A stretch of 55,340 nucleotides of DNA from Anaerolineae bacterium (GCA_029262755.1 JAJCYU010000060.1:1-55340), one strand, 5' to 3'; positions 10,001-38,332 are shown, counted from the stretch's first letter. Notes: generated by a model from the letters alone, not told the origin. Translations and numbers: made by a program.

Positions 10001-11103
10001 AGGCCGAGGAAGCCGTCCCCGACCACGCCGGGGTCGGCCGTCGTATCGACGATCAGCTCGGCGGTCGCATCGGGATCGGTCGTTGCCGTTGGCGTCGTGG
10101 TCGGCGTCGAGGTTCCGGTCGGCGTCGCGGTGCTCGAGGCCGTCGGGGTCGTCGTTGCCGTCGGCGGATCCGTCGGCGGCGGCGTGTTTGTGCCGGTCGA
10201 CGTCGGGCCGCTCGTGGGTGTCGTCGTCGGAGTGACCGGCGTCGGTACCGTCGTCGCCGTTCCCGTAGCGGTCGGCGACGGCGTGCCGGTCGGCAGCGGC
10301 GTGACGCCCGTTGGACCCTGGAAGCTGGCCGGCGTGGCCGTCGGAGTGGCGGGAACGCCGGTCGGTGTCAACGTGCCGGTCGGCTCGTTGCCGACATCGC
10401 GAACATACGGGAACATCACGACGAACACGCCCTGGTCCTGGGTGACCGTCACCCCCATCGAAAGTGGGTTGAGTGGAACGAAGCCCGACGGCGCGCTCGT
10501 CGCGCGCACCACCGTGTCCATGGCGTCCTGCAGGGCACAGCTGGGCTCGTCCACACCGTTGGTTGTGTATTGGCGGACGAGGAAGAACTGAAGGAGGTTG
10601 ATCCCGACGCCTCCGAGCAGCGGCTCGGTCCCGTCCACGGCACCGTCCTTGTCCAGATCCTCAAACGCGCCGACGCAGATCTCGATCCGCGTCACGGTCA
10701 GGTCGATCGTCCGGTCCTCGCCGGCGTCGAAGGTCTCGTTCTGGTCCGCGGGCACACCGTGCACACGAAACTCGAGGGGCGTTCCGTCTGCAACGCCCTC
10801 GACCGCAGGCGTATCTGGATCATCCGCGGCAACGTCGACCGCGTACACCCGTTCACCGTCCATCTCGATGACCGTCGTCGTAGCGACGATCTCTCCGCCG
10901 GCATGGATGCTCACCAACATGCCCAGGGGAGCGGGATTCCCGTAATAGGAGGCAAGGCCGCTATAGCGCGCCGGATCGGCAAGGCCGCCCGCCATACGCG
11001 CAGACGCACTATGCAACGACCCGCCGAACGCGATGGCACCCGCGCACAAGCAGGCAAGGATCATGCGCCGCGACCACGGCGTGGCTGGGTTTCGAGCGTC
11101 CAC
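7006..11103 (-). CDS. Large secreted protein: SdrD-B-like segment, beta-helix, cohesin-like module, TP/EP-rich linkers, C-terminal CBM_4_9-like jelly roll
   Basis: 1365-aa ORF with a GTG start at 11103 preceded by AGGAGG. Signal peptide: MILACLCAGAIAFGGSLHSASA. FEDLDKDGAVDGTEPLLGGVGINL is SdrD-B/Cna-B-like. Beta-helix rungs: NIAGVVLRGARVRRSFVLGNFIG, NVVSGNFLNGIAVLG, NVVSGNVGDGVWVQG. Cohesin-like module: LSIQPAISRLPMGAMATYDIVIRDVQDLFGLEIMLRYDPTRIQIV...GSGVVARFKIRARGPGVTRVDF. C-terminal region: CRRPLINPGFENDQGWTY...LDDTEVSFCP. Confidence 0.85.
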   Translation of the reverse strand: MDARNPATPWSRRMILACLCAGAIAFGGSLHSASARMAGGLADPARYSGLASYYGNPAPLGMLVSIHAGGEIVATTTVIEMDGERVYAVDVAADDPDTPAVEGVADGTPLEFRVHGVPADQNETFDAGEDRTIDLTVTRIEICVGAFEDLDKDGAVDGTEPLLGGVGINLLQFFLVRQYTTNGVDEPSCALQDAMDTVVRATSAPSGFVPLNPLSMGVTVTQDQGVFVVMFPYVRDVGNEPTGTLTPTGVPATPTATPASFQGPTGVTPLPTGTPSPTATGTATTVPTPVTPTTTPTSGPTSTGTNTPPPTDPPTATTTPTASSTATPTGTSTPTTTPTATTDPDATAELIVDTTADPGVVGDGFLGLREAIRLATGDLDPSGLSAEELNNIVGSPGAASSDTILFDPLVFPLKAPGTISVQPPVPTPGPSPTPLPPAQMLPSEPNPGLPPLSTGGDLIDATGRGVIVSAGLGMEMFDGLVLNSNGNVLRGLEMRAFDSAVVISGEAEGNAVGGDMPGQGLVLADNIAGVVLRGARVRRSFVLGNFIGVERDGSTPAGNATYGILLLDGTTSNQIGAAGAGNVVSGNFLNGIAVLGAGTRDNILQANLVGTNSAGNAAVGNGIGIVVGAGAQGTIVGGLGFGANVVSGNVGDGVWVQGSGTAFTLVQANTIGLTSDRAGMLGNGGNGVLISDGAHDNFVGGTDGRAANWISYNMDAGVKVNGAGTDGNTIRRNRITRNMGLGIDLMGGANSAIPAPIITEVDPGFFLIAGMATPNSLIDIYSDDGDEGATFEFTTRADGAGNFRVARAFAGPILSVTATGADGSTSEFGQLPGEPTPTVPTPTPGTPTPATPTPRATLDPNDVVGRLYLPFISQEATLFAQLSIQPAISRLPMGAMATYDIVIRDVQDLFGLEIMLRYDPTRIQIVDADPAAPGVQLEPGDFPEPARRFVAENRVDEAAGIMTYAFTLIEGDAVNGSGVVARFKIRARGPGVTRVDFEDKMLLDPQARPLPVGVRGARINVLAPPTGEPASPTPVTPTATNTPVTPTATNTPVPPTATRTPTPRPTDLPTPTLVPSATPTATSTPVPSATPTITPTPEPTNTPMPGETPPTATITPTPEPSATPEPTETPEPSATPEPSETPTASPEPTNTLEPSATPEASETPIPSETPVPSETPEPSETPLPSATPRPGETAVPTPDGCRRPLINPGFENDQGWTYRGQRSPRTTSAMAHSGLRSLVLGILSDEPNRLAYSTLWQPVRVPSDATTMQVSAWTFQEAQPGGGADRQLMLVYDVDPASNIDGQRAPLASVFAERSDAKAWQRRVRNLDVSAYRNQTLWIYATVVNDGLGGRAWMFLDDTEVSFCP
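7540..8011 (-). repeat. Degenerate in-frame tandem repeats encoding Pro/Thr/Glu linker of CDS 7006..11103
   Basis: About a dozen imperfect 18-nt units (ggctcgggcgtctcgctt / gggacgggcgtttcgctt / gggatcggcgtctcggat ...) encode (E/T)PS(E/A)TP on the minus strand. A 27-nt unit also occurs twice (7958-7984 gtcgccgtcggcgtgacgggcgtgttc; 7985-8011 gtggccgtcggcgtgacgggcgtcggc), encoding TPVTPTATN. Confidence 0.7.
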
Positions 11104-12587: not shown

Positions 12588-12646
12588 GATGCCCGTAGCT
12601 CCGGCGTCGGTTGCGGTTCCCTAAACAATCTGATAACCTCCCTCCG

Positions 12647-15600
12647 ATGCGCAACGTCGTCGTGACCCTCCCCCCTACACGACGCGGCCGCGCTCGGTGG
12701 GCCCTGCCGATTCTGTTGGGCGCATCGCTGGCCGCCGTGCTCGTGCTGCACCCCGATTCGACCCCGGTGGCGCTGCCGTCCCAAGACGCGGGACCGGCGG
12801 ACTACACCCTGATCGATTCGTGGTCGCTGCCCCGTCCGCCTGCCGCGCCAATCGATGTGGCGCTGCTGCCGGGCGGGCGGCTTTACGTTGCCGACGGACG
12901 GCGCCACGCGGTCCTGCTCTACGACGCTTCGGGTCGCGAGCGCGGAATGTGGGACCATCCGCCGCTGCCCCGTGTAACCAGCCACGCGTTCGTTCCGGTG
13001 GCCGTGGTCGGCGACCCCGATCGCGACCGCGTGCATGTTCTGTGGCAGCGAAACCTGATTAGCCCCAAGTTCACGGCGGACGGTCTCTTTCTTGACAGCC
13101 GCACGGCAGGCGGGGTGCCCGTGGGCAACCTGCGCTGGATCGGCGGCGTGCCCCCGGAGCTGCGAGACGCAGCGCTCCATCGCCCCAGTGGTGATCTCTG
13201 GCTGCTGTCGGATGGACGCGCTTTCCGATTGCGGGTCGATGTGGGCGCGGTCGAATCGGTTCGCGCACTTGCACCGGAAGATGCCGGCGCTACCGCGTTG
13301 GCCGTCGCGGACGACGAACGGCTGCTGGTGACACGGCCCGGGCAGCATGCCCTTGGCGTGTACGGGCCCGAGGAAGGCCTGATCACGATCCCGATGCAGG
13401 CTGGGGCCCCCGTTGCAGCGAGCTACCAAGCCGGCGAAGGTTGGCTCGTGCTCGTGCGCGCAGACAACGCGGAGGATCCACGGGCCCCGCTCGTCGTGGC
13501 GGTCGGAGAAGACGGACAGACCGTGACCCGCGCCGCGGCGTCGCTCCAAGCGCCGCCCCTCCCCGGTTTGGCCTGGCCGTGGGCGATCGACGCCACCTAC
13601 GACGGCTACGCGTTCAGCACCGCGTCGCGCCGGTTGCGAGTGCAGGTCGAGCCGGCCATCGGCCGACGTCCGCCCGCCCTGGTCGGAGACCGTGCCGCCG
13701 CCGCGTGGGCCGCGCGCCCCGCCGAAGCAAGAACGGGCGAGACATTGATGATCGCCTCGCATCCGGACGGCGGCCTCGTGGTGCTGGATGGCGCAGAACA
13801 ACGCGTGCTGCGCGTTACGCAGGACGGCACGCGAGCGCTGCTGGCCGGCATCGGGCCGGGCGCGCGTGACGTGACGGTGGACCCGAACGGCACGGTCTAT
13901 GTTTCGACCCGCGCCGGCCTGCTGGAACGCCTTGCCCCGGGCGATGTCGTGACCCCGACGTGGTCAAGCGCTTGCGCGTGCGTCCTCGGTGGACGCGTGG
14001 CCTCCGGACCCGGTGTTGTCTACGTCTCCCGATCGGGCGAACGCAAGGTGGCGGCCTTCGATCCCGTGACCGGTGCGCGCGTGCGCGATATCGCGCTCGG
14101 CGAAGGCGTCGGCCTCTGGCCGAGCGACGTCGCCGTTGCAGGCGGAACCCTGTACACGGCGGACCTGGTCACCGCGCGCATCCAAGGGTGGACGCAGCCC
14201 TCTATGCCGGACGTAGCGTGGCAAGCCGGCTTGCTGTCCGGCCCGCGACGCCTGGCGGCGGGGCACGGCCCGAATGGATCCCGCGTGCTTGCCGCGGCCA
14301 TGGCGGACGGGCACGTCGAGCTCCACGACTTGGATCGCGGCAACCTGATTACACGCTGGCAACCGCGCTTGCTCGACGAATCCACGGTGCATCCGGCCGA
14401 TATTGCGCTGGATGACGACGGCCTTGTGTATGTCGCCGATCCGGGATCGCGCGCCATTCACCTCTTCGGACCCGCCGCCGGCGTACCCGTCACACCCAAT
14501 CCGCGGCCAAGCCCCTCGCCGACGCCGTCGGCCGACAGCTGTCGCATCGTGGGCAACCAGGTCGTCTCGCCGTCGACCGTCGTACTGGGTTCCGATGCAA
14601 GCGCCGAGGTGACGCTGTCGTTACGTGCGCGATGCCCGCAGAGCGCACGTGTGGTCGGCGCCGACATCGTCCTGGTCCTGGATCGTTCCCTCTCCATGCG
14701 CGGGGCGCCCATCGTCGCCGCACGGGAGGCCGCGGGGGCATTCGCCGAGTTGTTGGACGTTCGCCACCACCGCCTCGGCCTCGTCTCCTTTTCCGATTCG
14801 TCGCGCCTCGACGTGCCGCTTACCGACCGTGTTGCCGCGATCATTACGGCCCTGGATGGCTTGGAGCCCGAAGGCCAAACCAACATCGGATCAGCGTTGG
14901 AACGGGCGCGGGAAGCGCTCGAGGCCGGCGGCCGCGACGAAGCCTTGCCCGTCATCGTGCTGCTCACCGACGGCGAGCACAATGTCGGCAGCCTCGATCC
15001 CGTGCTCGTCGCCGACGCCGCACGATCTTGGGGGGCGCAGATCTATGCGGTAGGACTCGGCGACGGCGTGGAGCGCTCCGCGCTACAACGCCTGGCCGGT
15101 CACCCGGATCACGTCTTCCTTGCGCCGTCGCCGGATGAGTTGTTCCCGATCTACCGCGAGATCCTGCGGGTCGTGCTGGAGAGCCTCGCCGGCAACTTCA
15201 TCATCACCGACGATCTGCCGACCGAGTGGGAGTACGTCACCGACTCCGCGGCCCCGCCGGCACTCGAACAAGCCGGACGGCTGCGCTGGGGACGCTCTAT
15301 CCTGCCGTCGACCGGGATCACGCTGACCTTGCGCCTCCGTCCGCGAACCGTCGGATGCGTGCCGGTCAGCCGCCATTCGGAGGCGTCCTACACCGATGCA
15401 GACGGATCGCGCCGGGTCTTCAGCTTCCCGATTCCCACCGTGTGTGCCGTGCAGCCGACCGCCACACCAACGGCGGAGCCGACGCCCACGCCCCGCCCGA
15501 TCTACGTGCCCGTCGTCATGCGCGACCACTGCGTGCCCCGGCTCGGGGGCGCGGACATCGTGTTGCTGATCGATACTTCCAGCAGCATGTCGGGCGACAA

Positions 15601-16078
15601 GATCCGGCAGGCACGCGGCGCAGCACGGGCATTCTTGGATCAGCTGGATCTGGAGCGCGACCAGGCGGCCGTGGTCGGCTTCAGCACGGAAGCCCGCATA
15701 GCCGCCCCCCTTACACGTGACGCCCGCCTGCTGCGCGTCGCGGTCGATGGCCTGCGTACGGAGAGCGGTACGCGCATCGACGCGGCGATGTGGGCTGCGG
15801 TGAGCTTGCTCGGCGGCTCGGGTCGCGATCCGAAGAACCGTCCGGCCATCGTGCTATTGTCGGACGGCGCGCATGCCGGGCCGAGCGGCGCCGTGCTCAT
15901 CGCGGCCGGCGAGGCCCGCCGGCTCGGCGCGCGCATCTACACCATCGCGCTCGGCGCGGATGCGGACCGGGATCTGCTCGCGACCATCGCGGACCAAGGC
16001 CGGGCGTACGTGGCGGCCGAGGGCGGCGAGTTGGGCGCCATTTACACGGAGCTGGCCACCGTCATCCCCTGTCCATGA
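12647..16078 (+). CDS. Secreted NHL-like beta-propeller + tandem VWA protein
   Basis: 1143 aa from ATG 12647. The track start TTG 12611 is also possible; neither has a clear SD. Signal anchor: RARWALPILLGASLAAVLVL. NHL-like blades: LYVADGRRHAVLLYDASGRERGMW, VYVADPGSRAIHLFGP. VWA 1 has an intact MIDAS (VLVLDRSLSM ... LTDGEHN). DUF11-like strands: IITDDLPTEWEYVTDS...GRLRWGRSILPSTGITLTLRLRP. A PT linker and IYVPVVMRDHC precede VWA 2 (LLIDTSSSM ... LLSDGAH). The protein ends ...VIPCP. Confidence 0.85.
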   Translation: MRNVVVTLPPTRRGRARWALPILLGASLAAVLVLHPDSTPVALPSQDAGPADYTLIDSWSLPRPPAAPIDVALLPGGRLYVADGRRHAVLLYDASGRERGMWDHPPLPRVTSHAFVPVAVVGDPDRDRVHVLWQRNLISPKFTADGLFLDSRTAGGVPVGNLRWIGGVPPELRDAALHRPSGDLWLLSDGRAFRLRVDVGAVESVRALAPEDAGATALAVADDERLLVTRPGQHALGVYGPEEGLITIPMQAGAPVAASYQAGEGWLVLVRADNAEDPRAPLVVAVGEDGQTVTRAAASLQAPPLPGLAWPWAIDATYDGYAFSTASRRLRVQVEPAIGRRPPALVGDRAAAAWAARPAEARTGETLMIASHPDGGLVVLDGAEQRVLRVTQDGTRALLAGIGPGARDVTVDPNGTVYVSTRAGLLERLAPGDVVTPTWSSACACVLGGRVASGPGVVYVSRSGERKVAAFDPVTGARVRDIALGEGVGLWPSDVAVAGGTLYTADLVTARIQGWTQPSMPDVAWQAGLLSGPRRLAAGHGPNGSRVLAAAMADGHVELHDLDRGNLITRWQPRLLDESTVHPADIALDDDGLVYVADPGSRAIHLFGPAAGVPVTPNPRPSPSPTPSADSCRIVGNQVVSPSTVVLGSDASAEVTLSLRARCPQSARVVGADIVLVLDRSLSMRGAPIVAAREAAGAFAELLDVRHHRLGLVSFSDSSRLDVPLTDRVAAIITALDGLEPEGQTNIGSALERAREALEAGGRDEALPVIVLLTDGEHNVGSLDPVLVADAARSWGAQIYAVGLGDGVERSALQRLAGHPDHVFLAPSPDELFPIYREILRVVLESLAGNFIITDDLPTEWEYVTDSAAPPALEQAGRLRWGRSILPSTGITLTLRLRPRTVGCVPVSRHSEASYTDADGSRRVFSFPIPTVCAVQPTATPTAEPTPTPRPIYVPVVMRDHCVPRLGGADIVLLIDTSSSMSGDKIRQARGAARAFLDQLDLERDQAAVVGFSTEARIAAPLTRDARLLRVAVDGLRTESGTRIDAAMWAAVSLLGGSGRDPKNRPAIVLLSDGAHAGPSGAVLIAAGEARRLGARIYTIALGADADRDLLATIADQGRAYVAAEGGELGAIYTELATVIPCP

Positions 16079-19465: not shown

Positions 19466-22400
19466 ATGCCGCGCGTGATACCCAGCGGCACCATCACGTT
19501 CTTGTTTACGGATATCGAAGGATCGACAGAGCGCTGGGAGCACCACGAGGCCGCGATGCGCAGCGCTCTGCAACGGCATGACGCGCTGCTCCGCGAAGCC
19601 ATCGAGGGCGCCGGCGGTTACGTCTTCAAGACGGTTGGCGATGCGTTCTGCGCGGCTTTCGCCACGGCGGGCGCCGGCATCGGCGCTGCCGTCGATGCCC
19701 AACACAAGCTCTTTGCGGAGGACTGGTCGGTATTCGGCGAGTCCTTCCCGCCGATCCGTGTGCGCATGGGCCTTCATACCGGCGAAGTGCAGGAGCGCGA
19801 AGGCGACTACTTCGGGCGGCCGGTCAACCGCGCCGCGCGCTTGGAGGCTGCGGCAAACGGCGGCCAGGTGATGCTGTCGCGCGCAACCTACCAGCTTGTT
19901 GCGGAAGGCTTGCCGGACGAACTGCGGTTGCGCGAGCTGGGCGAACACCGCCTCAAGGACCTGCGCAACACGGAGTTTCTATATCAGGTCGTCATCGACG
20001 GTCTGCCCGACATCGAGGTCGCGCCGCGCACCGTAGAAGAGCTACATCCGCGCGACCGTATCCAGGTCGCGGCGCCGGATGGCGGCTTGACAGCGTCCGG
20101 TCACGGGCTCGATGTCGATGAAGCTCTGTGGCGCCGGCTGCACGATGCGATCACGGGCGACGGTCGCGACGACGTCGTGACCTTGAGTGCAGAAGAAGCG
20201 GCCGCGCTCGCTCGACACAAGCCGATCGACGCCATGCAACTGCGCCTTGGTCGCGTCGCGGAATGGTCACAGCCGCGCTACCGGCTGGACGGTCGTTTCG
20301 TGGGGCTCACGCTTCTGCTCGATCAGGGCGAGGAGGCGACGCTCGGTCGCTGGCAGGAGAGCGGCGACCAGACCCAAGACCTGCGCGACGTGCTTGCTGT
20401 ACAGGACTCCCCGGTCTCGGTGGTGCTCGGACCGCCCGGTTCCGGCAAGAGCACGTTGCTGCGCCGGCTGGAGCTCGATACCGCGATCGACGCCCTGCGC
20501 GGCGAGGGCGAGGACGTCATCACCTTTTTCGTCCAGCTCAACACCTACGCCCCCGCGGCGCCGGGTGAACCGCCGCCGGCGCCCGCGGCATGGCTCGCGG
20601 AGCGCTGGGCCGTCCGAAATCCCGATCTCCCCTCGTTTGAGGATCTGCTCAAGACGGGACGCATGCTGTTGTTGTTGGACGCGTTCAACGAGATGCCCGC
20701 CTCGAGTGAATCGGAGTATCACGCACGCGCGCAGTTATGGCGTACATGGCTGCAACAGACGGTCAGCGACTACCCCGGGAACCGGATGGTGTTCTCCTGT
20801 CGCTCGCTGGACTACAGCCAACCGCTGTCCACGCCGGCACTGCGGGTGCCCCAGGTTCGTGTCGACGTTCTGAGCAACGAGCAGGTCATCGAGTTCTTGA
20901 GCCTCTACAGCCCTGTGCGTTGGCGCGAGATTTGGGCAGAGCTGGAGGGCAGCCCGCAGCTCGAGGTGCTGCGCAGCCCGTACTTCTTGAGCCTGCTCGT
21001 GGACCAAGTCGAGTCTTCTGGTGAGATGCCGGACGGGCGGGCTGCGCTGTTCACGGGCTTCGTGCGCCAAGCGTTGCGGCGCGAGGTCGAGCGGGGCAAC
21101 CCCCAATTCCAAGCCGGCGATCTGATCGCAACGCGCGATCTGCGTCGTGTCACGAAATGGAAATGGAAGAGCCCGTGGGACCTCCCGGAGCGCGGCGTGT
21201 TGCTCACGAAGCTGGCAGAGCTGGCCTACGAGATGCAGGCTGACCGGGACGACACGGAGATGTCGCAAGTGCGCATCGACGTGGACGACGCCTTCGAGAT
21301 GTTGGACGATGACCATGACGAGCAAATCGTCGCGGCCGGCGCAGCACTCGCCGTGTTGGACGAAGACGAGACCGCCGACGAGCTCATGTATGTCCATCAG
21401 CTCATTCAGGAGTACTTTGCCGCCCGCGCACTTGCTCGACGGCCAAACCCCGATCTCGTGGCCAGCCCGTGGCGCATCAGCGACGTCAGCCCGAGTCTAA
21501 GTGAGGTCGTCGAAGAGCTCGACCCTGCGGATCCGCTGCCCACCCTGCCCCAGACGGGGTGGGAGGAGACCACCTTGCTCGCGTCGGCCATGTCGGACGA
21601 TCCGGCCGCCTTCGTCGCCGAGGTTGCCACCAAGAACCTCGTCCTCGCCGGACGGTGCGCCGCGCAGCCGGACGTCGGATCGCGGCTGCCCGCAGTGCAG
21701 CTTGCCGCGTTGCGAGAGCAACTCGCCGAGCGCAGCCGTGACCCACAAGCCGACTTGCGCGAGCGCATTGCCTGCGCGACGGTCGTCGGCGAGCTAGGTG
21801 ATCCCCGCTTTGCTCGACACGAGGGCCCACACGGCGTGTATCTGCTGCCGCCGCTCATCGATGTCGTCGGTGGTGAGTACGTGATGGGAGGCGACGAGCC
21901 GATCACCCATGCCGCGGGCGTCTCCGAAGGGCATATTCCACGCCATACGGTGGCGCTTGAGGCGTTTCGCATCGGCCAATTCGCCGTAACCAACGCGGAG
22001 TTCCGCTGCTTTGTCGACGCCGGCGGCTACGACGATTCGCGCTGGTGGGACATCGAGCCCGCGGGCGCGTGGCAGCGCGGAGAGATCACCAACGAAGGCA
22101 ACAAGGCCAACAATCGCTTTTGGCACGGCCAGTTCAAGGCCAATCCCGAGCAACTCGAGGCATGGGCCGAGCAAGGCGTCCTCAGCGAGGACCTCGCCGA
22201 CAACTGGCGACGCTGGATCGCGCTCGACGACGACGCGTTCGAGGCGGAGCTCGACGACGTCTTCCCCGCCCGCAAGATCGACGCACCGCGCTATATCCAG
22301 GACAATCGCTACAACGCCGCAGCGCAACCCGTGACCGGCATCTGCTGCTATGAAGCGCGCGCATACTGTCGGTGGTTGTCCGCCCAGACGGGGCTCACGG

Positions 22401-22843
22401 TGCGCCGGCCTTCCGAGGCGGATTGGGAGGCAGCGGCCCGAGGCGCCGAGGGGCGCAGCTATCCATGGGGCGATACATTCGGTGCGTTCTGTGCCAATTG
22501 CGTGGAAACGCACATTCGCACCACCACGCCCGTAGGGGTGTTGCTGGACGGGGACACACCCGAAGGTGTCGCCGATTTATGCGGCAACGCGTACGAGTGG
22601 ACGACAAGCGCGTGGGGGCCGAATGTTGGCGTACCGCACTACGCCTATCCCTATGATCCGGCGGACGGACGCGAAGACCTGGCGCTTGAACCGAATTGGC
22701 GACGAGTGATTCGCGGCGGCGCCTGGTACTTCGACCCGGCCTACTGCGACGCGATCTACCGCTACGACTTTCCTCCGGCCGGATGGGCCGACGTGCCTGC
22801 GATCGGTTTACGCATCCTCGTCGAGGTCCACGACACCGATTGA
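19466..22843 (+). CDS. Class III adenylate cyclase / NACHT NTPase / HEAT / FGE-sulfatase-domain STAND protein
   Basis: 1125 aa with GGGGGGAGAG upstream of the ATG. Cyclase motifs: FLFTDIEGST, FKTVGDAF, GLHTGEV, GDYFGRPVNRAARLE. NACHT motifs: Walker A GPPGSGKST (20429-20455), Walker B LLLLDAFNEM (20666-20695), VFSCRS, and the winged-helix motif MYVHQLIQEYFAA (21386-21424). HEAT-like: VVGELGDPRF. FGE-sulfatase motifs: GGEYVMGG, FAVTNAEF, CCYEARAYCRWL, RRPSEADWEAAARG, YPWGD, GNAYEWT, RVIRGGAW. Confidence 0.9.
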   Translation: MPRVIPSGTITFLFTDIEGSTERWEHHEAAMRSALQRHDALLREAIEGAGGYVFKTVGDAFCAAFATAGAGIGAAVDAQHKLFAEDWSVFGESFPPIRVRMGLHTGEVQEREGDYFGRPVNRAARLEAAANGGQVMLSRATYQLVAEGLPDELRLRELGEHRLKDLRNTEFLYQVVIDGLPDIEVAPRTVEELHPRDRIQVAAPDGGLTASGHGLDVDEALWRRLHDAITGDGRDDVVTLSAEEAAALARHKPIDAMQLRLGRVAEWSQPRYRLDGRFVGLTLLLDQGEEATLGRWQESGDQTQDLRDVLAVQDSPVSVVLGPPGSGKSTLLRRLELDTAIDALRGEGEDVITFFVQLNTYAPAAPGEPPPAPAAWLAERWAVRNPDLPSFEDLLKTGRMLLLLDAFNEMPASSESEYHARAQLWRTWLQQTVSDYPGNRMVFSCRSLDYSQPLSTPALRVPQVRVDVLSNEQVIEFLSLYSPVRWREIWAELEGSPQLEVLRSPYFLSLLVDQVESSGEMPDGRAALFTGFVRQALRREVERGNPQFQAGDLIATRDLRRVTKWKWKSPWDLPERGVLLTKLAELAYEMQADRDDTEMSQVRIDVDDAFEMLDDDHDEQIVAAGAALAVLDEDETADELMYVHQLIQEYFAARALARRPNPDLVASPWRISDVSPSLSEVVEELDPADPLPTLPQTGWEETTLLASAMSDDPAAFVAEVATKNLVLAGRCAAQPDVGSRLPAVQLAALREQLAERSRDPQADLRERIACATVVGELGDPRFARHEGPHGVYLLPPLIDVVGGEYVMGGDEPITHAAGVSEGHIPRHTVALEAFRIGQFAVTNAEFRCFVDAGGYDDSRWWDIEPAGAWQRGEITNEGNKANNRFWHGQFKANPEQLEAWAEQGVLSEDLADNWRRWIALDDDAFEAELDDVFPARKIDAPRYIQDNRYNAAAQPVTGICCYEARAYCRWLSAQTGLTVRRPSEADWEAAARGAEGRSYPWGDTFGAFCANCVETHIRTTTPVGVLLDGDTPEGVADLCGNAYEWTTSAWGPNVGVPHYAYPYDPADGREDLALEPNWRRVIRGGAWYFDPAYCDAIYRYDFPPAGWADVPAIGLRILVEVHDTD

Positions 22844-24679
22844 GATCTCCGCTCTTTCGGGCGCGATGTCCGTCCGCGTGGATCGACCAAATTGGGCTTC
22901 ATACAACGCGGCGTACGCGCCCTCGGCAGCGAGGAGCGTCGCATGATCGCCGCGCTCTACGATGCGGCCTTTGTCGAGCACCACGATCTCGTCCGCTCCG
23001 CGTATGGTGGACAAGCGGTGCGCGATCACGAGCGCGGTGCGACCGGCGAGCAGGCGCTCGAGCCCCCGTTGGATGACCTGCTCCGTCCGCGTATCGACCG
23101 CGGCGGTCGCTTCGTCGAGAATCAGGATGCGCGGGTCGGTCAGGGCGGCACGCGCCAAGGAGATCAGCTGCCGTTGCCCCGCCGAGAGAGTCCCTCCTCG
23201 TTCCCCGAGATCCGTTTCGTAGCCGTCGGCCATCGCCTGGATGAACCCGTGCGCGCCCACGGCGGTCGCCGCGTCCTCGATCTGCGCCTGCGATGCCTCC
23301 GGTCGGCCGTACGCGATGTTGTCTCGAACACTTCCTGAGAAGAGGAAGCCTTCTTGGGGCACGAGGCCGATCGAACGGCGCAACTCTCTCGCACGAAGCC
23401 CAAGCACGTCGTGGCCGTCCACCCGCACGACGCCTTCTTGGGCGACGTAAAAGCGCGGGACGAGGTTCACCAACGTCGTCTTGCCCGCCCCGGTCGCGCC
23501 TACGATGGCGACGCTACGGCCCGCGGGAATAGCGAGGTTGATATCGTGCAACACGGGTTCGTCCGCGCCATACGCGAAGGTGACCCCTTCGAAGGAGATA
23601 GCGCCTTCGAGCCTGCCCACTGAACGCGCATCGGGTGGATCGGCATGGTCCTCCGGCTGATCGAGCAGCTCGAAGACCCGCTCCGAGGCGGCAAGCGCGG
23701 CCTGCGCTTGCGTCCAGAAGGTCGAGAGCTGTTGCAACGGCCGAAAAAGGGCGGACACCCAGAGCACAAACGAGACGACAACACCCACTTCCATGCGGCC
23801 CGCAAGGACGAGGTAGCCTCCGCTGCCCGCCACCGCAGCCGTGGCCAGCGCGCTCAGCAAGTTGATCGCGGGCGTGAACGCGCTCGTCACAGCCACGGCA
23901 CTCACGTTGGCATCTCGATTCGCACGGTTCGCAGCGGCGAAGGCCTCCACGTTGTGCTCGGTTCGTGCGAAGGCCTGCGCTTCCCTCACGCCGGAAAGAT
24001 CCTCTTGCAGGCTGCTGGACACGTCGCCGATGGCGGCCCGCGCGGTGCGGTACCGCTCGCGCGCTCTGCGCGCGAACCAGCGGGTTACCAGCCACGTCAA
24101 CGGCAACGAGAGCGACGTGATGCCCGCAAGCAGCGGGCTGGCGAACACCATGACAACGAGCACGAGCGATAGGCCCATCACGGCGCCGACACTCTGAATG
24201 AGGCCTTGGCTCAGGAATCCGGCGACCACGTCCACGTCGCTGACGAGCCGTGACTGTAGGTCGCCGCTACCGACGCGGTCGAGAAACCCGAGCGGCAGGC
24301 GCGAGACCTTGGCGAATAGCTCGGAACGCACCTGGTGCAGCACGCGCTGACCGAGGCCACCAAAGAGCAGTAACTGCCCGATGAAGCCGACGAGACCGAC
24401 GACGTACACGCCGAAAAGGATCATCATGGTGCGATCGAGACCGCCGAGCCGAACGGCAAGGTCCAGGCCCGGCGCTTCGAGCCAGCGGTCGATCGCACGC
24501 CCGATCAACAGCGGACCGAGCGCCTGCCCACTCGCGCCGAGCAGCATCAAGGCAAAGGTGGCTGCGATCACCCGCGGCTCCGCGCTCAGGTAGCCCAGCA
24601 GCCGCCGAAGGGTGCCGCCACGATCCGTGGCTGTGCCACGATCCGCCAACTCGGCGAGCCGCTGCCATCCCCCGTGCAT
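22808..24679 (-). CDS. ABC exporter, fused permease/ATPase subunit (heterodimer partner B)
   Basis: 623 aa with six N-terminal TM helices. Walker A GATGAGKTT, signature LSAGQRQLISLARA, Walker B ILILDEATAAVD. Its 3' end overlaps the convergent cyclase-NACHT gene by 36 nt. Confidence 0.9.
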   Translation of the reverse strand: MHGGWQRLAELADRGTATDRGGTLRRLLGYLSAEPRVIAATFALMLLGASGQALGPLLIGRAIDRWLEAPGLDLAVRLGGLDRTMMILFGVYVVGLVGFIGQLLLFGGLGQRVLHQVRSELFAKVSRLPLGFLDRVGSGDLQSRLVSDVDVVAGFLSQGLIQSVGAVMGLSLVLVVMVFASPLLAGITSLSLPLTWLVTRWFARRARERYRTARAAIGDVSSSLQEDLSGVREAQAFARTEHNVEAFAAANRANRDANVSAVAVTSAFTPAINLLSALATAAVAGSGGYLVLAGRMEVGVVVSFVLWVSALFRPLQQLSTFWTQAQAALAASERVFELLDQPEDHADPPDARSVGRLEGAISFEGVTFAYGADEPVLHDINLAIPAGRSVAIVGATGAGKTTLVNLVPRFYVAQEGVVRVDGHDVLGLRARELRRSIGLVPQEGFLFSGSVRDNIAYGRPEASQAQIEDAATAVGAHGFIQAMADGYETDLGERGGTLSAGQRQLISLARAALTDPRILILDEATAAVDTRTEQVIQRGLERLLAGRTALVIAHRLSTIRGADEIVVLDKGRIVERGDHATLLAAEGAYAALYEAQFGRSTRTDIAPERAEISIGVVDLDEDA

Positions 24680-30097: not shown

Positions 30098-30187
30098 CGC
30101 GTCCTTCCCTGTAGCCCCTGTAGCAGGCTGACAGCGCCGAAATCCATGCGCGTTTCACATGGTCGACAACCATGCCGGATAGGCGTG

Positions 30188-30215
30188 TTGTACGCCACGC
30201 GCGACCGTGTACAAT
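30188..30215 (+). promoter_or_regulatory. Candidate promoter (extended -10) for tandem-VWA gene 30263..32257
   Basis: TTGTAC (30188-30193), 16 nt spacer including TG, TACAAT (30210-30215; TGTACAAT). GGAGG SD lies before ATG 30263. Confidence 0.4.
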
Positions 30216-30262
30216 GCAAGGGTACGTGCGCTTCCTTTAACAGGGATTTGGAGGCGACGAGG

Positions 30263-32257
30263 ATGCGCCACATCCGACTGCTGAAGAGACAATCCACCCT
30301 TATCGTCGCCGCCTTCGCGGTCGCGGCGAGTTGTGTGCTGGTTGGCGGTTCCGACGTACTGGGCCAGAGATCGGCGCCAAGCGCAGGCCTCTCGGTTCAA
30401 CAAGAGCGCGGTAGCTGCAGCGATGCTCACCCCGATAGCTCTCCCGACGCGCTCACCGACGCCCTCTACTCGTCTCGGACCGTGAGCCCGGAGGCGATTC
30501 TAGGCTGCGAGCGCGCGACCATCACCGTAACGCTCGGCGCCCGATGCGAGGTCGCGGACCTGCACGTCGTGGTGAGCTTCGATCACTCGCAATCGATGGC
30601 CGATGGCAATGCCCTTAAGCGCGCAAAGGAAGGCGTAAGGGATCTTCTGCAAGAACTCGACATCGATTCCTATCCGGGCACGCGTGTCGGCTTGGTCACC
30701 CACGGCGCGCAAGCGTCTTCGGTGGATCTCTCCGACAAAGCCGGCGCGATAAGCAGCCGGGTTCTAAACCTTAAAGCCGCCGGGAATGAGGACGTCGCCG
30801 GGTCGATCGACGAAGCCAGCAAGATGTTCGTGCGCACACCGGTGGGAAGCGGCGTTCCGCCGCGGCGGGTGATTGTGGTGTTCACGGATGGCGTGAGTGA
30901 TCCCAACCAGAAGGGACCAGCGATTGGGGCTGCGCGCAAAGCCCATAGTCAGGGTGTAGAGGTCATCTCGGTTTGCTTCGAAAATGGCTATTTCAGTTGT
31001 CCATGGACGAAAGATCTTGCAAGTGCGAGTCGTTTGAGCATGACGAACAAGGGCGACCGAGGCATGAACAGGGCGTTCCGCACCGTGTTCGACGACCTTA
31101 GGACTACGGGTATCGTGAGCTTGAGCCTTGCCGACATTCTGCCGGTCGGGCTCTCCTACGTAGAGGACTCAGCCAAGCCCTCGTTGCAGGCAGGATCGAA
31201 CATCGAAGAACGCACGCTCGCGTGGCGGGAAAACGACAACAAGAGGCGGTACCGCCAGCCGCGCGTCATCTCGCGCACATTGCAATACGAGGTCGAGCCG
31301 ACGGATCCGCTGACGACAACCGTTCGCAGCTACGTTATCTCGCAGAGTTCCGGCACGTTCGAAGACAATCGTGGCTTCGGCGGCCCGTGGCGGGTGCCCA
31401 CGAGTACGCTGCGCGTGCTCGGCCCGTGCCCGCTGCGCATCGAGCCGACCCCGCCACCCCGCACCCCGCCTGTGCCGCCTTCGCCGCCCGACGAACCGTC
31501 GCCGACGCCGACACCGGCATGGACACCACCGGCGGGCTTGATCGACCCTCCGCGCAACGTGCAACCCTGGCCGGTCGTACCGGCGCCGAGCACGGTGTAC
31601 TTGCCCATTCTGGACCTGGAATACTGTCGGGACCGGCGCGTTCCGGTCGATACCGTCCTGCTGATCGATGTCTCGGAGTCGATGCGCGGTGCGAAGCTGG
31701 ATGCTGCCAAGAAGGGAGCGACGCTCTTCGTCAACAGCATGCGCAGCCAAGATCGGACCGCACTCATCACCTTTGCGGACGACGCGCGCAGTGCATCGAC
31801 TCATTTGCGCAGCTACGAGCAAACGTCGACCTTGCGACGCGACATTCGGGACATGCAGCTGCGAAACGGTACCAACATCGCGGGGGCGCTCACGGCGGCA
31901 ACCGAACTCCTCGACCGCGAGGCCCGGACGGGTCGCTCGCGACAGCCCGTTATCGTGCTGCTCACCGACGGAGATGATCTAGACCCATCGCGCCAAACGG
32001 CCGCGTTGACGATTGCGAAGAGCTTCGTCCAAGAACGCCAGGCCGGCTATCGGATGTTCGGACGCTTGTTCACCGTTGCGGTCGGCCCGAACGCGAACCG
32101 CTCGTTCTTGGCGGAACTTTCGTGGGATCCCGCCGACGCATTGGTCTACGAGTTCCCGCTGGGCGACGGGCCGAACCGAGGCAAGCAGCTCGTCGAAGCC
32201 TTCGAACGGATCGCCGGCGCCCTGCCCTGTCCGATCGCGCCCGCTGACCTACCCTGA
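30263..32257 (+). CDS. Secreted tandem-VWA protein (paralog family)
   Basis: ATG 30263 (GGAGGCGACGAGG upstream). Signal peptide: MRHIRLLKRQSTLIVAAFAVAASCVLVGG. TVSPEAILGCERATITVTLGARC precedes VWA 1 (VVSFDHSQSM ... VFTDG). DUF11-like strands: LADILPVGLSYVEDS...RTLAWREN. A P-rich linker and VYLPILDLEYC precede VWA 2 (LLIDVSESM ... LLTDGDD). The protein ends ...GALPCPIAPADLP. Confidence 0.85.
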   Translation: MRHIRLLKRQSTLIVAAFAVAASCVLVGGSDVLGQRSAPSAGLSVQQERGSCSDAHPDSSPDALTDALYSSRTVSPEAILGCERATITVTLGARCEVADLHVVVSFDHSQSMADGNALKRAKEGVRDLLQELDIDSYPGTRVGLVTHGAQASSVDLSDKAGAISSRVLNLKAAGNEDVAGSIDEASKMFVRTPVGSGVPPRRVIVVFTDGVSDPNQKGPAIGAARKAHSQGVEVISVCFENGYFSCPWTKDLASASRLSMTNKGDRGMNRAFRTVFDDLRTTGIVSLSLADILPVGLSYVEDSAKPSLQAGSNIEERTLAWRENDNKRRYRQPRVISRTLQYEVEPTDPLTTTVRSYVISQSSGTFEDNRGFGGPWRVPTSTLRVLGPCPLRIEPTPPPRTPPVPPSPPDEPSPTPTPAWTPPAGLIDPPRNVQPWPVVPAPSTVYLPILDLEYCRDRRVPVDTVLLIDVSESMRGAKLDAAKKGATLFVNSMRSQDRTALITFADDARSASTHLRSYEQTSTLRRDIRDMQLRNGTNIAGALTAATELLDREARTGRSRQPVIVLLTDGDDLDPSRQTAALTIAKSFVQERQAGYRMFGRLFTVAVGPNANRSFLAELSWDPADALVYEFPLGDGPNRGKQLVEAFERIAGALPCPIAPADLP

Positions 32258-35266: not shown

Positions 35267-35377
35267 CTGCCCCTCCTTGGTCGCGCTCCATGATAGCGTC
35301 GTCGACTGCCGCCGCCTGCTCTGATCCATCCTTGGGAGGGCTGGTTCCCGAGGCTCGCCGAGGGCTATCATTCCGCC

Positions 35378-38157: not shown

Positions 38158-38332
38158 CAGACTCCGAGGTGCGGAACTGCCGGCTGATTTCCTACCCACC
38201 GGATCCGAGTCCTCTGCACGGATTCGCTACTGCCCTGTCCGCGCGGACCATGGCAAGATGTTAATCCCTGCGAGATGTCCGTGCCGCGTGCGTCGCGGCC
38301 GTCCCGTGCGCGGGGACCAGGGGGCCAATACC

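What the first reader, a model, noticed from the sequence alone, without database searches (positions are those of the whole stretch)
19466..22843. Single-chain adenylate cyclase / NACHT / HEAT / FGE-sulfatase STAND protein: candidate sensor-gated cAMP (alarm or surveillance) module
One 1125-aa polypeptide combines four modules.
(i) A class III nucleotidyl cyclase (nt ~19487-19990). It keeps both metal Asp (FTDIEGST, KTVGDAF), the adenine-specifying Lys/Asp pair (FKTVGD ... GDYFG) and the transition-state Asn/Arg (PVNRAARLE). It therefore looks catalytically competent and cAMP-type.
(ii) A NACHT-type STAND NTPase, with Walker A at 20429-20455, Walker B at 20666-20695 and VFSCRS. The diagnostic winged-helix motif MYVHQLIQEYFAA lies at 21386-21424.
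(iii) A HEAT-like turn.
(iv) A C-terminal FGE-sulfatase / C-type-lectin-fold domain (nt ~21848-22819).
Effector-NTPase-sensor is the design logic of bacterial NLR-like antiviral STAND proteins. FGE-sulfatase domains are known ligand-sensing modules, sometimes DGR-diversified, in such proteins of multicellular bacteria. The cyclase-STAND fusions I know of (mycobacterial Rv0386 type) instead end in TPR + LuxR HTH. Class III cyclases must dimerise to form active sites, so ligand-driven NACHT oligomerisation is a plausible on-switch for a cAMP burst.
The gene stands alone. It is divergent from a 2-TM coiled-coil protein, convergent with an ABC exporter, and near a CPBP/Abi protease and a GNAT. From sequence alone I cannot distinguish defence, self/non-self surveillance and ordinary signalling. 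I also cannot confirm that the architecture is uncatalogued.
Basis: partly seen in the sequence, partly recalled or inferred. Interest (0 to 1): 0.8.

Follow-up and report, generated by a model that had tools for sequence, protein, structure and literature searches.

The report
Adenylate-cyclase NLR-like sensor protein
This gene encodes a bacterial relative of animal NLR immune receptors that joins a hypervariable ligand-binding domain and a NACHT switch to a cAMP-making enzyme. The design is already listed in a published survey, but nobody has tested what it does.

Summary
ORF 19466-22843 (+) encodes 1125 aa with a class III cyclase (all six catalytic residues), a NACHT NTPase and a C-terminal FGE-sulfatase/C-type-lectin domain. 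Pfam does not support the "HEAT" element.

It is not unique. At least 110 protein clusters at 50-61% identity share the architecture. All named ones are Chloroflexota, and they often sit in tandem paralog arrays with unrelated neighbours.

The same NACHT-FGE chassis in other phyla carries TIR, EAD8, death-like or kinase modules where the cyclase sits. In 10-14 of those loci it is a live target of a diversity-generating retroelement (template repeat plus reverse transcriptase).

The window gene and 30 cyclase-type relatives have no template or RT nearby. Their C-terminal 37 residues still vary at exactly the template-Asn positions and carry a partial adenine-mutagenesis codon signature.

Most likely this is a single-gene NLR-like sensor whose ligand-driven oligomerisation dimerises the cyclase and releases cAMP. 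Its variable region looks like a relic, or is diversified in trans.

Kibby et al. (NACHT clade 23, Table S1) already list cyclase+NACHT+FGE. It is therefore a new member of a known but experimentally untested kind.

The parts
19466..22843 (+). Complete ORF, 1125 aa: cyclase - NACHT - helical region - FGE/C-type-lectin domain.
   Evidence: Relatives align along the full length and start at the same position.
19484..19996 (+). Class III nucleotidyl (adenylate) cyclase catalytic domain, residues 7-177. Metal Asp D16 and D59, substrate pair K55/D114, transition-state N121/R125.
   Evidence: Pfam PF00211, E=1.8e-19. PDB sequence matches to GRESAG4, Ma1120 and Rv1900c. Foldseek TM up to 0.94 on Ma1120. 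All six residues kept in 101 of 110 relatives.
19997..20413 (+). Variable linker (residues 178-250) followed by a conserved pre-NACHT segment (residues 256-300, RLGRVAEWSQPRYRLDGRFVGLTLL). The pre-NACHT segment is shared with relatives that lack the cyclase.
   Evidence: Entropy profile. tblastn matches of non-cyclase relatives begin at query residues ~225-264.
20414..20905 (+). NACHT P-loop NTPase core, residues 317-480. Walker A at nt 20429-20455 (K328), Walker B D405 followed by A-F-N-E at nt 20666-20695, and R446 in VFSCRS.
   Evidence: Pfam PF05729, 39.4 bits against a cut-off of 26.7. K328, D405, N408, E409 and R446 are invariant in 110 relatives. Model pLDDT is 84-95.
20906..21562 (+). 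Helical and winged-helix part of the STAND module, residues 481-699. It includes the MYVHQLIQEYFAA motif (nt 21386-21424) with invariant H644.
   Evidence: Foldseek aligns 520-600 columns to NLRC4, NLRP3 and NOD2. Model confidence is low over residues 517-570 and 628-643.
21563..21796 (+).
   Evidence: Helices 700-709, 713-721, 725-733, 743-757 and 764-777 at pLDDT ~86-91. No Pfam HEAT hit at E<=0.05.
21854..22813 (+). FGE-sulfatase / C-type-lectin-fold domain, residues 797-1116: the predicted ligand sensor.
   Evidence: Pfam PF03781, E=3.5e-35. PDB matches to ToxD, EgtB and FGE. No Cys or His is invariant in the domain. NCBIfam enzyme models score far below their cut-offs.
22703..22813 (+). 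Segment equivalent to a DGR variable region, residues 1080-1116. The scaffold R1080, R1083, G1084, W1087, R1099, P1104, G1114 and R1116 is fixed. Positions 1088-1093, 1098, 1100-1103, 1105-1106 and 1108-1113 are hypervariable.
   Evidence: Per-column entropy of 3.1-3.7 bits in 110 relatives. The variable columns coincide with template-Asn codons in 10 DGR-linked relatives. Partial codon signature. No template repeat in the window.

Best explanation
The gene encodes a single-chain bacterial NLR-related (NACHT) receptor in a Chloroflexota chromosome.

The C-terminal FGE/C-type-lectin domain is a ligand-binding sensor. Its binding surface is the 37-residue hypervariable tip. The NACHT module is the nucleotide-dependent switch. 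The N-terminal class III cyclase sits in the effector slot.

Inferred sequence of events:
1. Ligand binding to the variable tip releases autoinhibition.
2. The NACHT module exchanges nucleotide and oligomerises.
3. Oligomerisation brings single cyclase domains together. Class III cyclases form their active sites only across a dimer interface.
4. ATP is converted to cAMP in a burst.
5. The cAMP is read by proteins encoded elsewhere, or the reaction drains ATP.

The family context points to a conflict or immune role rather than housekeeping signalling.

The variable tip descends from a DGR-mutagenised variable region. In this branch no retroelement lies nearby. The repertoire is therefore either frozen into germline paralogs or maintained by a DGR elsewhere in the genome.

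Shown here: domain identities, intact catalytic and NTPase residues, effector swapping in the family, live DGR cassettes in relatives, and absence of a cassette here.

Inferred: ligand gating, activation by oligomerisation, cAMP as the product, and a role in defence.
For: - Domains and motifs.
- Selection on both enzymes: 101 of 110 relatives keep all six cyclase residues, and 110 of 110 keep the Walker A Lys, Walker B Asp, N408, E409, R446 and H644.
- Effector slot: 49 relatives with the same NACHT-FGE core carry TIR_2 (24), EAD8 (8), TCAD9/APH (4-5), Pkinase (2), DUF4062 (2), bDLD3 (1) or SEFIR (1) at the N-terminus. Seven cyclase-type proteins carry an extra N-terminal TIR.
- Sensor: ten relatives have a template repeat that differs from the gene's 3' end almost only at template adenines (11-23 of 13-25 mismatches). 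Three have an RVT_1 reverse transcriptase beside it. RT homologues occur in 14 such loci.
- The same columns are hypervariable in the cyclase clade. Their residue sets match single-adenine mutagenesis: R/Q/L/P, Y/F/C/S, H/L/P/R and D/G/A/V.
- Codon test on 22 genes: NNC at 62% against a 43% background (p=6.5e-10); K/E/Q/M/W at 5.3% against 17% (p=9e-9).
- Paralog arrays typical of NLR-like expansions: four genes in L001, pairs in L002 and L085, and 3-6 genes per MAG.
- No conserved neighbour: no Pfam family occurs in more than 2 of the 103 flanking ORFs taken from 12 cyclase-type loci.
- Published surveys put this architecture among bacterial NACHT immune-type proteins. Related CLec-STAND proteins are proposed antigen sensors.
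Against: - No experiment exists for any cyclase-type or FGS-type NACHT protein (one search states this for CLec-STAND proteins; two searches found nothing).
- PADLOC gives only a weak PycC hit. The NCBIfam EruA match is far below its cut-off.
- The window looks like ordinary chromosome (tig, clpP, clpX, dnaJ, ABC transporters) and not a defence island.
- No cNMP-binding effector is seen in the window or recurrently near relatives. The output path is therefore unknown.
- The window's variable segment departs from the family scaffold (ARAA->CDAI, R1107->W, a two-codon insertion). That could mean a decaying sensor.
- The model is a monomer, so the dimerisation step is untested.
Confidence: 0.6

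Rival explanations
1. It is an ordinary environmental or developmental signalling receptor. The lectin-like domain binds a glycan or another extracellular- or intracellular-derived cue, and the protein feeds the cell's normal cAMP network. It has no role in conflict.
For: - The chromosomal context includes housekeeping genes. One tandem pair sits in the replication-origin region. One relative lies next to a GAF-cyclase and two-component genes.
- cAMP is a general second messenger, and mycobacterial cyclase-STAND proteins such as Rv0386 are regarded as regulators (my own knowledge).
- No defence-system HMM passes its threshold.
Against: - The same chassis swaps the cyclase for TIR, EAD8, death-like or SEFIR modules and is hypermutated by DGRs in relatives.
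- Paralog arrays with hypervariable tips are unusual for a housekeeping receptor.
- The neighbourhoods are not conserved.
Confidence: 0.22
2. It is a self/non-self (kin or allorecognition) receptor of filamentous Chloroflexota, analogous to fungal HET-type NACHT proteins. Polymorphic tips recognise variants from neighbouring cells.
For: - Several divergent paralogs per genome carry hypervariable tips.
- The hosts belong to lineages that are filamentous (my own knowledge).
- Kibby et al. discuss the fungal HET-D/E-like NACHT clade and list fungal NACHT+FGE-sulfatase proteins, in a different clade, 25.
Against: - The protein has no signal peptide or transmembrane segment and looks cytoplasmic. 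I judged this by reading the sequence and ran no formal predictor.
- There is no linked polymorphic ligand gene.
- Nothing here distinguishes this reading from phage sensing.
Confidence: 0.1
3. It is still an active DGR target, hypermutated in trans by a retroelement located more than 10 kb away or on another contig.
For: - The variable columns carry adenine-mutagenesis residue sets and an NNC excess.
- Kaur et al. report template repeats 'elsewhere in the genome' for some systems.
- Only 55 kb of this genome is visible.
Against: - There is no template or RT in the window or within 10 kb of 30 cyclase-type genes, against 10 of 56 non-cyclase relatives (Fisher p=0.013).
- Paralogs in one genome differ at synonymous scaffold sites, so no shared template is homogenising them.
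- The codon signature is only partial.
- The window copy has scaffold substitutions and a 6-nt insertion that only 3 of 110 relatives share.
- All DGR-linked loci fall in the other main branch of the family tree.
Confidence: 0.2
4. It is an enzyme of the SUMF1/EgtB/PvdO family, as NCBI names its relatives. The C-terminal domain would then be a catalyst and not a sensor.
For: - Relatives carry the database name 'SUMF1/EgtB/PvdO family nonheme iron enzyme'.
- Pfam FGE-sulfatase scores E=3.5e-35, with matches to EgtB, FGE and OvsA structures.
Against: - The EgtB, SenA, OvoA, GldK and PvdO models score 41-80 bits against cut-offs of 350-500.
- No Cys or His is invariant in the domain.
- From my own knowledge, the FGE catalytic Cys pair lies just after the GGS[WY] motif. 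That stretch is the most variable part of the protein here.
- There is no DinB-type iron-binding domain.
Confidence: 0.02

Closest known systems
Bacterial NACHT (NLR-related) proteins, clade 23 of Kibby et al. (bioRxiv 10.1101/2022.07.19.500537; Cell 2023): NACHT + FGS/FGE-sulfatase 'antigen-receptor type' sensors
   Same: - The order is the same: N-terminal effector, NACHT, C-terminal FGE-sulfatase.
- The partner modules are the same in my relatives and in their table: TIR, bDLD3, TCAD9+kinase and cyclase.
- The host groups overlap: Chloroflexi, Acidobacteria, Nitrosomonas, Chromatiaceae and Entotheonella.
[quoted passage not shown]
   Different: - The Haliangium protein has two cyclase domains in tandem (~1400 aa). 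The window protein has one, so it must pair between chains.
- The Chloroflexota branch studied here has no DGR cassette nearby.
- In the part of Table S1 that I read, no clade 23 entry carries a bNACHT designation, so none appears to have been tested.
DGR-diversified STAND/CLec 'putative antigen sensors' of multicellular bacteria (Dore et al. 2024, PMC10907252; Kaur et al. 2020, PMC7159879)
   Same: - A central STAND NTPase with a C-terminal FGE-type C-type-lectin domain whose tip is the variable region.
- N-terminal TIR or peptidase effectors.
- Duplicated targets.
- Enrichment in filamentous or aggregating bacteria.
   Different: - Those are defined by an adjacent template repeat and reverse transcriptase. 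Here both are absent.
- A cyclase on a STAND-CLec target is not mentioned in the passages I retrieved.
Mycobacterial cyclase-STAND regulators (Rv0386 / Rv1358 / Rv2488c type)
   Same: An N-terminal class III cyclase is followed by a STAND-type P-loop NTPase in one chain (my own knowledge).
   Different: Those end in TPR repeats and a LuxR-type HTH and are regarded as transcription-linked regulators. This one has a NACHT module and ends in a hypervariable lectin-fold domain, with no DNA-binding domain.
Pycsar (PycC cyclase plus cNMP-activated effector)
   Same: A class III-type cyclase is used as an immune signal generator. There is a weak PycC HMM hit, 2.2e-8.
   Different: - Pycsar is a two-gene operon with a cNMP-binding effector, and it makes cCMP or cUMP.
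- Here there is no adjacent effector.
- The specificity pair is the ATP-type K/D.
- The cyclase is fused to its own sensor and switch.
Ma1120 / Rv1900c / trypanosomal GRESAG4 adenylate cyclase catalytic domains
   Same: These are the best sequence and structure matches for residues 7-177. They are homodimeric class III catalytic cores.
   Different: Those are stand-alone or attached to other regulatory modules. None is fused to NACHT and FGE domains.

Membership tests
Bacterial NACHT / NLR-related proteins | NACHT P-loop NTPase module recognised by the family HMM above threshold | tested here: met
   PF05729 scores 39.4 bits against a cut-off of 26.7, over residues 317-452.
Bacterial NACHT / NLR-related proteins | Walker A GxxxxGK[ST], plus Walker B followed by the NACHT signature D[GAS]hDE (as given by Kibby et al.) | tested here: inconclusive
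   Walker A GPPGSGKST is present, and K328 is invariant in 110 of 110 relatives. After Walker B the window reads D405-A-F-N-E, and the family reads D-[AG]-L-N-E. Asn therefore replaces the first acidic residue in every member.
Bacterial NACHT / NLR-related proteins | Winged-helix/helical extension with a conserved His, and fold similarity to NLR NACHT modules | tested here: met
   H644 in MYVHQLIQEYFAA is invariant. Foldseek hits NLRC4, NLRP3 and NOD2 with E about 1e-8 over 520-600 columns. Overall TM is low because the model has several domains and parts of it are of low confidence.
Bacterial NACHT / NLR-related proteins | Tripartite layout: N-terminal effector, NACHT, C-terminal sensor | tested here: met
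   The same layout is listed for clade 23 in Kibby Table S1.
Bacterial NACHT / NLR-related proteins | Protection against phage | not testable with these tools
   This needs a phage challenge of an expressing host.
Class III adenylate cyclase | Cyclase homology domain recognised by HMM and by fold | tested here: met
   PF00211 scores 70.5 bits against a cut-off of 21.9. PDB matches reach E=1e-21. Foldseek TM reaches 0.94 on Ma1120.
Class III adenylate cyclase | Two metal Asp, a Lys/Asp adenine-specifying pair, and transition-state Asn and Arg | tested here: met
   D16, D59, K55, D114, N121 and R125 are all present, and 101 of 110 relatives keep all six.
Class III adenylate cyclase | Dimeric active site and measurable cAMP synthesis | not testable with these tools
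   Only a monomer model could be made.
DGR variable (target) protein | C-type-lectin/FGE fold with the variable region at the extreme C-terminus on the RGGxW...R...P...GFR scaffold | tested here: met
DGR variable (target) protein | A cognate template repeat that differs from the variable region only at template adenines | tested here: not met
   None is present in the 55-kb window on either strand. None lies within 10 kb of 30 cyclase-type relatives. A template elsewhere in the genome cannot be excluded. The metagenome scan was uninformative.
DGR variable (target) protein | A DGR reverse transcriptase in the locus | tested here: not met
   tblastn with three family-linked RTs gives no hit in the window or in any cyclase-type locus, but hits 14 non-cyclase loci. 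Pfam scans of the window ORFs show no RVT.
DGR variable (target) protein | Variation confined to codon positions that derive from template adenines (NNC codons, no K/E/Q/M/W) | tested here: inconclusive
   NNC is 62% against a 43% background, and K/E/Q/M/W is 5.3% against 17%. Both differences are significant but far from complete. This fits a relic.
FGE / SUMF1 / EgtB / PvdO enzymes | Score above the curated equivalog cut-off, and a conserved catalytic centre (FGE Cys pair, or the EgtB DinB iron site) | tested here: not met
   The best NCBIfam score is 79.8 against a cut-off of 360. No Cys or His is invariant in the domain. There is no DinB domain. My placement of the FGE Cys pair inside the hypervariable stretch rests on my own knowledge of human FGE.
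Pycsar | PycC cyclase with an adjacent cNMP-binding effector gene | tested here: not met
   The PycC hit is weak and partial, 31.6 bits. No cNMP_binding gene lies in the window or recurs in relatives' flanks.

The most novel reading that the evidence does not exclude
The Chloroflexota cyclase branch may be a receptor family that was once hypermutated by a DGR and then lost the retroelement. Its diversity would now be fixed as a germline repertoire of tandem paralogs. That would be a shift from 'adaptive-like' to 'innate-like' recognition, coupled to an output (a cAMP burst from an NLR-type oligomer) that has not been demonstrated for any NLR-related protein.
Probability: 0.3. Interest if true: 0.65.

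Novelty: new member of a known kind. Interest (0 to 1): 0.4.

Why it matters
If the inferred mechanism is right, this family links an NLR-type switch to cAMP. No experiment has yet shown a cyclic-nucleotide output for a bacterial NACHT protein.

The single cyclase domain gives an easily measured readout of oligomerisation. That makes the protein a convenient model for asking what FGE/lectin-type 'antigen receptor' domains recognise.

The family also offers a natural comparison between live DGR targets (the TIR branch) and a branch with only the footprint of hypermutation. This bears on how diversified receptors become germline repertoires.

In practical terms, the database name 'SUMF1/EgtB/PvdO family nonheme iron enzyme' is probably misleading for hundreds of proteins.

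Tried and rejected
1. Template repeat in the window. A general repeat search and an adenine-tolerant sliding comparison over both strands found only the region itself.

2. Trans template in public metagenomes. After fixing the invariant scaffold codons, the scan returned nothing, not even the window's own sequence. The source is therefore not in that collection and the test says nothing.

3. HEAT repeat. There is no Pfam hit on residues 480-800 at E<=0.05.

4. MoxR-vWA ternary system. The window has three VWA proteins but no MoxR ATPase, VMAP or effector-associated domain next to the gene. I rejected this link.

5. Defence-island context. PADLOC and NCBIfam gave only sub-threshold hits. The neighbour census showed a single BREX BrxC/D hit, one integrase and one transposase among 103 flanking ORFs, and nothing recurrent.

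6. Search for a cAMP reader gene near relatives. None recurs.

7. Residue-level alignment of the C-terminal 92 aa to solved FGE structures, to place the catalytic Cys pair. Only CalU17 matched weakly, so that point rests on my own knowledge plus the lack of any invariant Cys.

8. My first ORF-extraction and regex scripts failed and were redone.

9. Literature searches for cyclase-output NACHT/STAND defence returned nothing.

Full report

Yes. The ORF at 19466-22843 (+) is open for 1125 codons. Pfam finds three domains above their gathering scores:
- Guanylate_cyc, residues 7-165, E=1.8e-19.
- NACHT, residues 317-452, E=7e-10, 39.4 bits against a cut-off of 26.7.
- FGE-sulfatase, residues 797-1116, E=3.5e-35.

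- Walker A: residues 322-330, with K328.
- Walker B: residues 401-410.
- VFSCRS: residues 442-447.
- MYVHQLIQEYFAA: residues 641-653.

The cyclase segment matches solved adenylate cyclases by sequence: GRESAG4.1/4.3 at E about 1e-21, M. avium Ma1120 at 3e-19, and Rv1900c. A 30-sequence AlphaFold model has mean pLDDT 73.6. The cyclase and NACHT cores are mostly above 84.

Foldseek places the cyclase on Ma1120 (TM up to 0.94 normalised to the target). It places the central module on NLRC4, NLRP3 and NOD2, and the C-terminal domain on the FGE-like ToxD.

The 'HEAT-like turn' is the only element not supported. Residues 480-800 give no Pfam hit at E<=0.05. The model does show five confident helices at 700-777.

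**2. Catalytic competence**

The six canonical class III residues are D16 and D59 (metal), K55 and D114 (adenine pair), and N121 and R125 (transition state). From my own knowledge of Rv1625c, their spacing is the canonical one.

Across 110 near-full-length relatives, 101 keep all six. All 110 keep K328, D405, N408, E409, R446 and H644. Both enzymatic modules are therefore under purifying selection.

A small subclade changes the specificity pair to D/T/A plus G. This may mean a different nucleotide substrate.

**3. How common is it, and where?**

A protein search returned more than 120 clusters at 50-61% identity with the same three domains. The few that are named are called 'SUMF1/EgtB/PvdO family nonheme iron enzyme' and come from Caldilineae, Ardenticatenales and Anaerolineae MAGs.

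A scan of one genome per species found full-length cyclase-type matches only in Chloroflexota MAGs: Caldilineae HK-STAS-CHLO-18, Ca. Epilinea brevis, Ardenticatenales SJ541 and several Anaerolineales. Each genome has 3-6 copies.

Copies are often tandem. L001 has four, and L002 and L085 each have a pair.

ClpX from the window places the host in Chloroflexota with no close named relative. The best hit is 81% identical and unnamed. Named hits are Limnocylindrales, Anaerolineae and Caldilineae at <=75%.

**4. The N-terminus is an effector slot**

In other phyla the match starts only at query residue ~190-270. These include Blastocatellia and other Acidobacteriota, Competibacteraceae, Nitrosomonas, Chromatiales, Entotheonella and Accumulibacter. 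The NACHT-FGE core is thus shared and the N-terminus is not.

I extracted the N-terminal parts of 49 such genes and scanned them with Pfam:

| N-terminal module | Members (of 49) |
|---|---|
| TIR_2 | 24 |
| EAD8 | 8 |
| APH/TCAD9 kinase-like | 4-5 |
| Pkinase | 2 |
| DUF4062 | 2 |
| bDLD3 (death-like) | 1 |
| SEFIR | 1 |

These are the effector and adaptor modules of the conflict systems described by Kaur et al. 2020 and Kibby et al.. Seven cyclase-type proteins also add a TIR in front of the cyclase.

This is the strongest comparative argument that the cyclase is the output module of an NLR-like receptor.

**5. The C-terminus is a DGR-type variable region**

In the cyclase clade the last ~37 residues of the FGE domain alternate between two kinds of column:
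- Invariant scaffold residues: R1080, R1083, G1084, W1087, R1099, P1104, G1114 and R1116.
- Columns with 12-17 residue types and 3.1-3.7 bits of entropy.

I tested 74 related loci for a template repeat, using 60-nt windows and allowing mismatches only where the putative template has A. Ten non-cyclase relatives gave textbook pairs.

After refinement, their variable regions span 85-139 nt at the extreme 3' end of the gene. Of 13-25 mismatches, 11-23 fall at template adenines. The templates encode RGGSW-NNN-Q-NN-ARAAYR-NNNN-P-NN-R-NNN-x-GFRV.

Three of these loci have an RVT_1 reverse transcriptase beside the template. tblastn with those RTs finds homologues in 14 non-cyclase loci. Seven of the eight DGR-linked genes I checked carry TIR.

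The template-Asn positions are exactly the hypervariable columns of the cyclase clade.

**6. The window gene and its branch have no DGR nearby**

- No template exists anywhere in the 55-kb window.
- Pfam scans of the window ORFs show no reverse transcriptase.
- No RT homologue is found by tblastn in the window or in any cyclase-type locus.
- Of 30 cyclase-type genes with up to 10 kb of flank, none has a template, against 10 of 56 non-cyclase relatives (Fisher p=0.013; some genes share a locus).
- A rough NJ tree of the shared core puts all DGR-linked loci in one TIR-rich branch. All cyclase-type genes fall in the other, Chloroflexota-dominated branch (no support values).

The cyclase clade nevertheless carries a footprint of adenine mutagenesis. 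Individual columns show the residue sets expected from mutating one adenine:
- R/Q/L/P, as from CAG.
- Y/F/C/S, as from TAC.
- H/L/P/R, as from CAC.
- D/G/A/V, as from GAC.

In 22 genes with DNA in hand, I examined 264 codons at template-Asn-equivalent positions:
- They end in C in 62% of cases, against 43% elsewhere in the same genes (p=6.5e-10).
- They encode K/E/Q/M/W in 5.3% of cases, against 17% elsewhere (p=9e-9).

A live variable region would be near 100% and 0%, so the signal is partial.

Paralogs within one genome differ at synonymous scaffold sites. No single current template is homogenising them.

The window copy is the most eroded. Its scaffold ARAA reads CDAI, R1107 is W, and it has a two-codon insertion shared by only 3 of 110 relatives.

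I read this as a relic variable region. A DGR acting from elsewhere in the genome cannot be excluded, because only 55 kb is visible. My metagenome scan for a template found nothing, not even the window itself, so it is uninformative.

**7. Context**

The window is ordinary chromosome. It encodes trigger factor, ClpP, ClpX, a DnaJ protein, an HDAC-family deacetylase, a pseudouridine synthase, ABC transporters and three VWA proteins. It has no MoxR, no RT and no cNMP-binding protein. GC content is even across the gene.

The neighbours of cyclase-type genes elsewhere are unrelated to one another. No Pfam family occurs in more than two of the 103 flanking ORFs taken from 12 loci. One pair is even inserted between parAB-dnaN and rnpA-yidC-jag. 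L004 shares only the NHL-VWA and CPBP genes with the window.

This behaves as a single-gene system.

**8. Mechanism**

Shown here:
- An intact cyclase, an intact NACHT module, and a variable lectin-fold tip.
- An effector-swap position at the N-terminus.
- No partner gene.

Inferred: ligand binding at the tip triggers NACHT oligomerisation. Oligomerisation brings the single cyclase domains into the dimer that class III cyclases need for catalysis, and this produces a cAMP burst. TIR, the commonest alternative in the same slot, is also activated by proximity (my own knowledge), which fits this logic.

What reads the cAMP is unknown. ATP drain or distant cNMP-dependent effectors are both possible.

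I give the overall model 0.6. The main rival is ordinary signalling (0.22). Kin recognition (0.1) and the enzyme reading implied by the database name (0.02) follow.

The enzyme reading fails for three reasons:
- The curated EgtB, SenA, OvoA and PvdO models score 41-80 bits against cut-offs of 350-500.
- No Cys or His is invariant in the domain.
- The stretch where FGE has its catalytic cysteines (my own knowledge) is the hypervariable one.

**9. Comparison with what is known**

Kibby et al. classify bacterial NACHT proteins. They name FGS domains as 'antigen receptor type' sensors, 'in several cases' DGR-diversified, and cNMP cyclases as N-terminal enzymatic effectors.

Their Table S1, clade 23, lists TIR-, bDLD3-, DrHyd- and TCAD9+kinase-NACHT-FGE proteins. 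[quoted passage not shown] The architecture is therefore catalogued.

Dore et al. 2024 and Kaur et al. 2020 describe DGR-diversified STAND-CLec proteins as putative antigen sensors. Dore et al. state that none has been characterised experimentally. I found no paper testing a cyclase-output NACHT or STAND protein.

This gene differs from the listed Haliangium example in three ways:
- It has a single cyclase domain rather than a tandem pair.
- It belongs to a paralog-rich Chloroflexota branch.
- That branch has no retroelement near its genes.

**10. Verdict**

The kind is already known and the function is untested.

- Novelty: new member of a known kind.
- Interest: 0.4.

The interest rests on the untested cAMP output and on the apparent relic of hypermutation in a DGR-free branch.

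Noticed in passing
window 7523-7890, inside ORF 7006-11103 (-): Nine overlapping copies of a repeat with 18-nt periodicity lie inside a 1365-aa ORF that has no Pfam hit. The adjacent 1300-aa ORF (3132-7034, -) has Big_1, Invasin_D3 and DUF11 domains, so both may be large surface proteins.
   Followed up: no
window 12611-16078, 30146-32257 and 38258-40192: The window holds three VWA-domain proteins, one of them with NHL repeats and two VWA domains. No MoxR ATPase was detected near them. L004 has the same NHL-VWA, VWA and CPBP genes upstream of its cyclase-NACHT-FGE gene, the only partial synteny seen.
   Followed up: partly
window 22808-22843: The 3' ends of the cyclase-NACHT-FGE ORF and the convergent ABC exporter ORF (22808-24679, -) overlap by 36 nt. 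The exporter's last two codons also overlap the end of the variable-region-equivalent segment (to 22813).
   Followed up: no
window 15448-15492, 39477-39523 and 54600-54732: Similar Pro/Thr-rich coding DNA recurs in several unrelated ORFs at 77-82% identity. These are probably low-complexity linkers.
   Followed up: no
L085/L086 10001-17302: A tandem pair of cyclase-NACHT-FGE genes is inserted between parA-parB-dnaN and jag-yidC-yidD-rnpA-rpmH. That is the conserved replication-origin neighbourhood.
   Followed up: no
Proteins P0097, P0110, P0116, P0119 and P0120 (relatives): A subclade replaces the cyclase specificity pair K55/D114 with D/T/A and G while keeping the metal and transition-state residues. 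This suggests a different nucleotide substrate. Four of them (all but P0120) also lack a precomputed Pfam NACHT hit.
   Followed up: no
Proteins P0006, P0010, P0017, P0019, P0021, P0023 and P0051; locus L084: These variants carry a TIR_2 domain in front of the cyclase (TIR-cyclase-NACHT-FGE, ~1280-1310 aa). P0051 has lost three of the six cyclase residues (ERDANR instead of DKDDNR).
   Followed up: partly
L005 100-9663: A 3187-aa ORF with four DUF11 repeats and other Ig-like domains lies directly upstream of a cyclase-NACHT-FGE gene in the Caldilineae MAG.
   Followed up: no
window 34331-36160 (-): A DnaJ-family protein of 609 aa has its J domain starting only at residue ~303, so it has a long N-terminal extension of unknown nature.
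   Followed up: no
Database names of P0009, P0016, P0022 and others: Relatives are named 'SUMF1/EgtB/PvdO family nonheme iron enzyme' in NCBI. This ignores the cyclase and NACHT modules and is probably misleading.
   Followed up: yes
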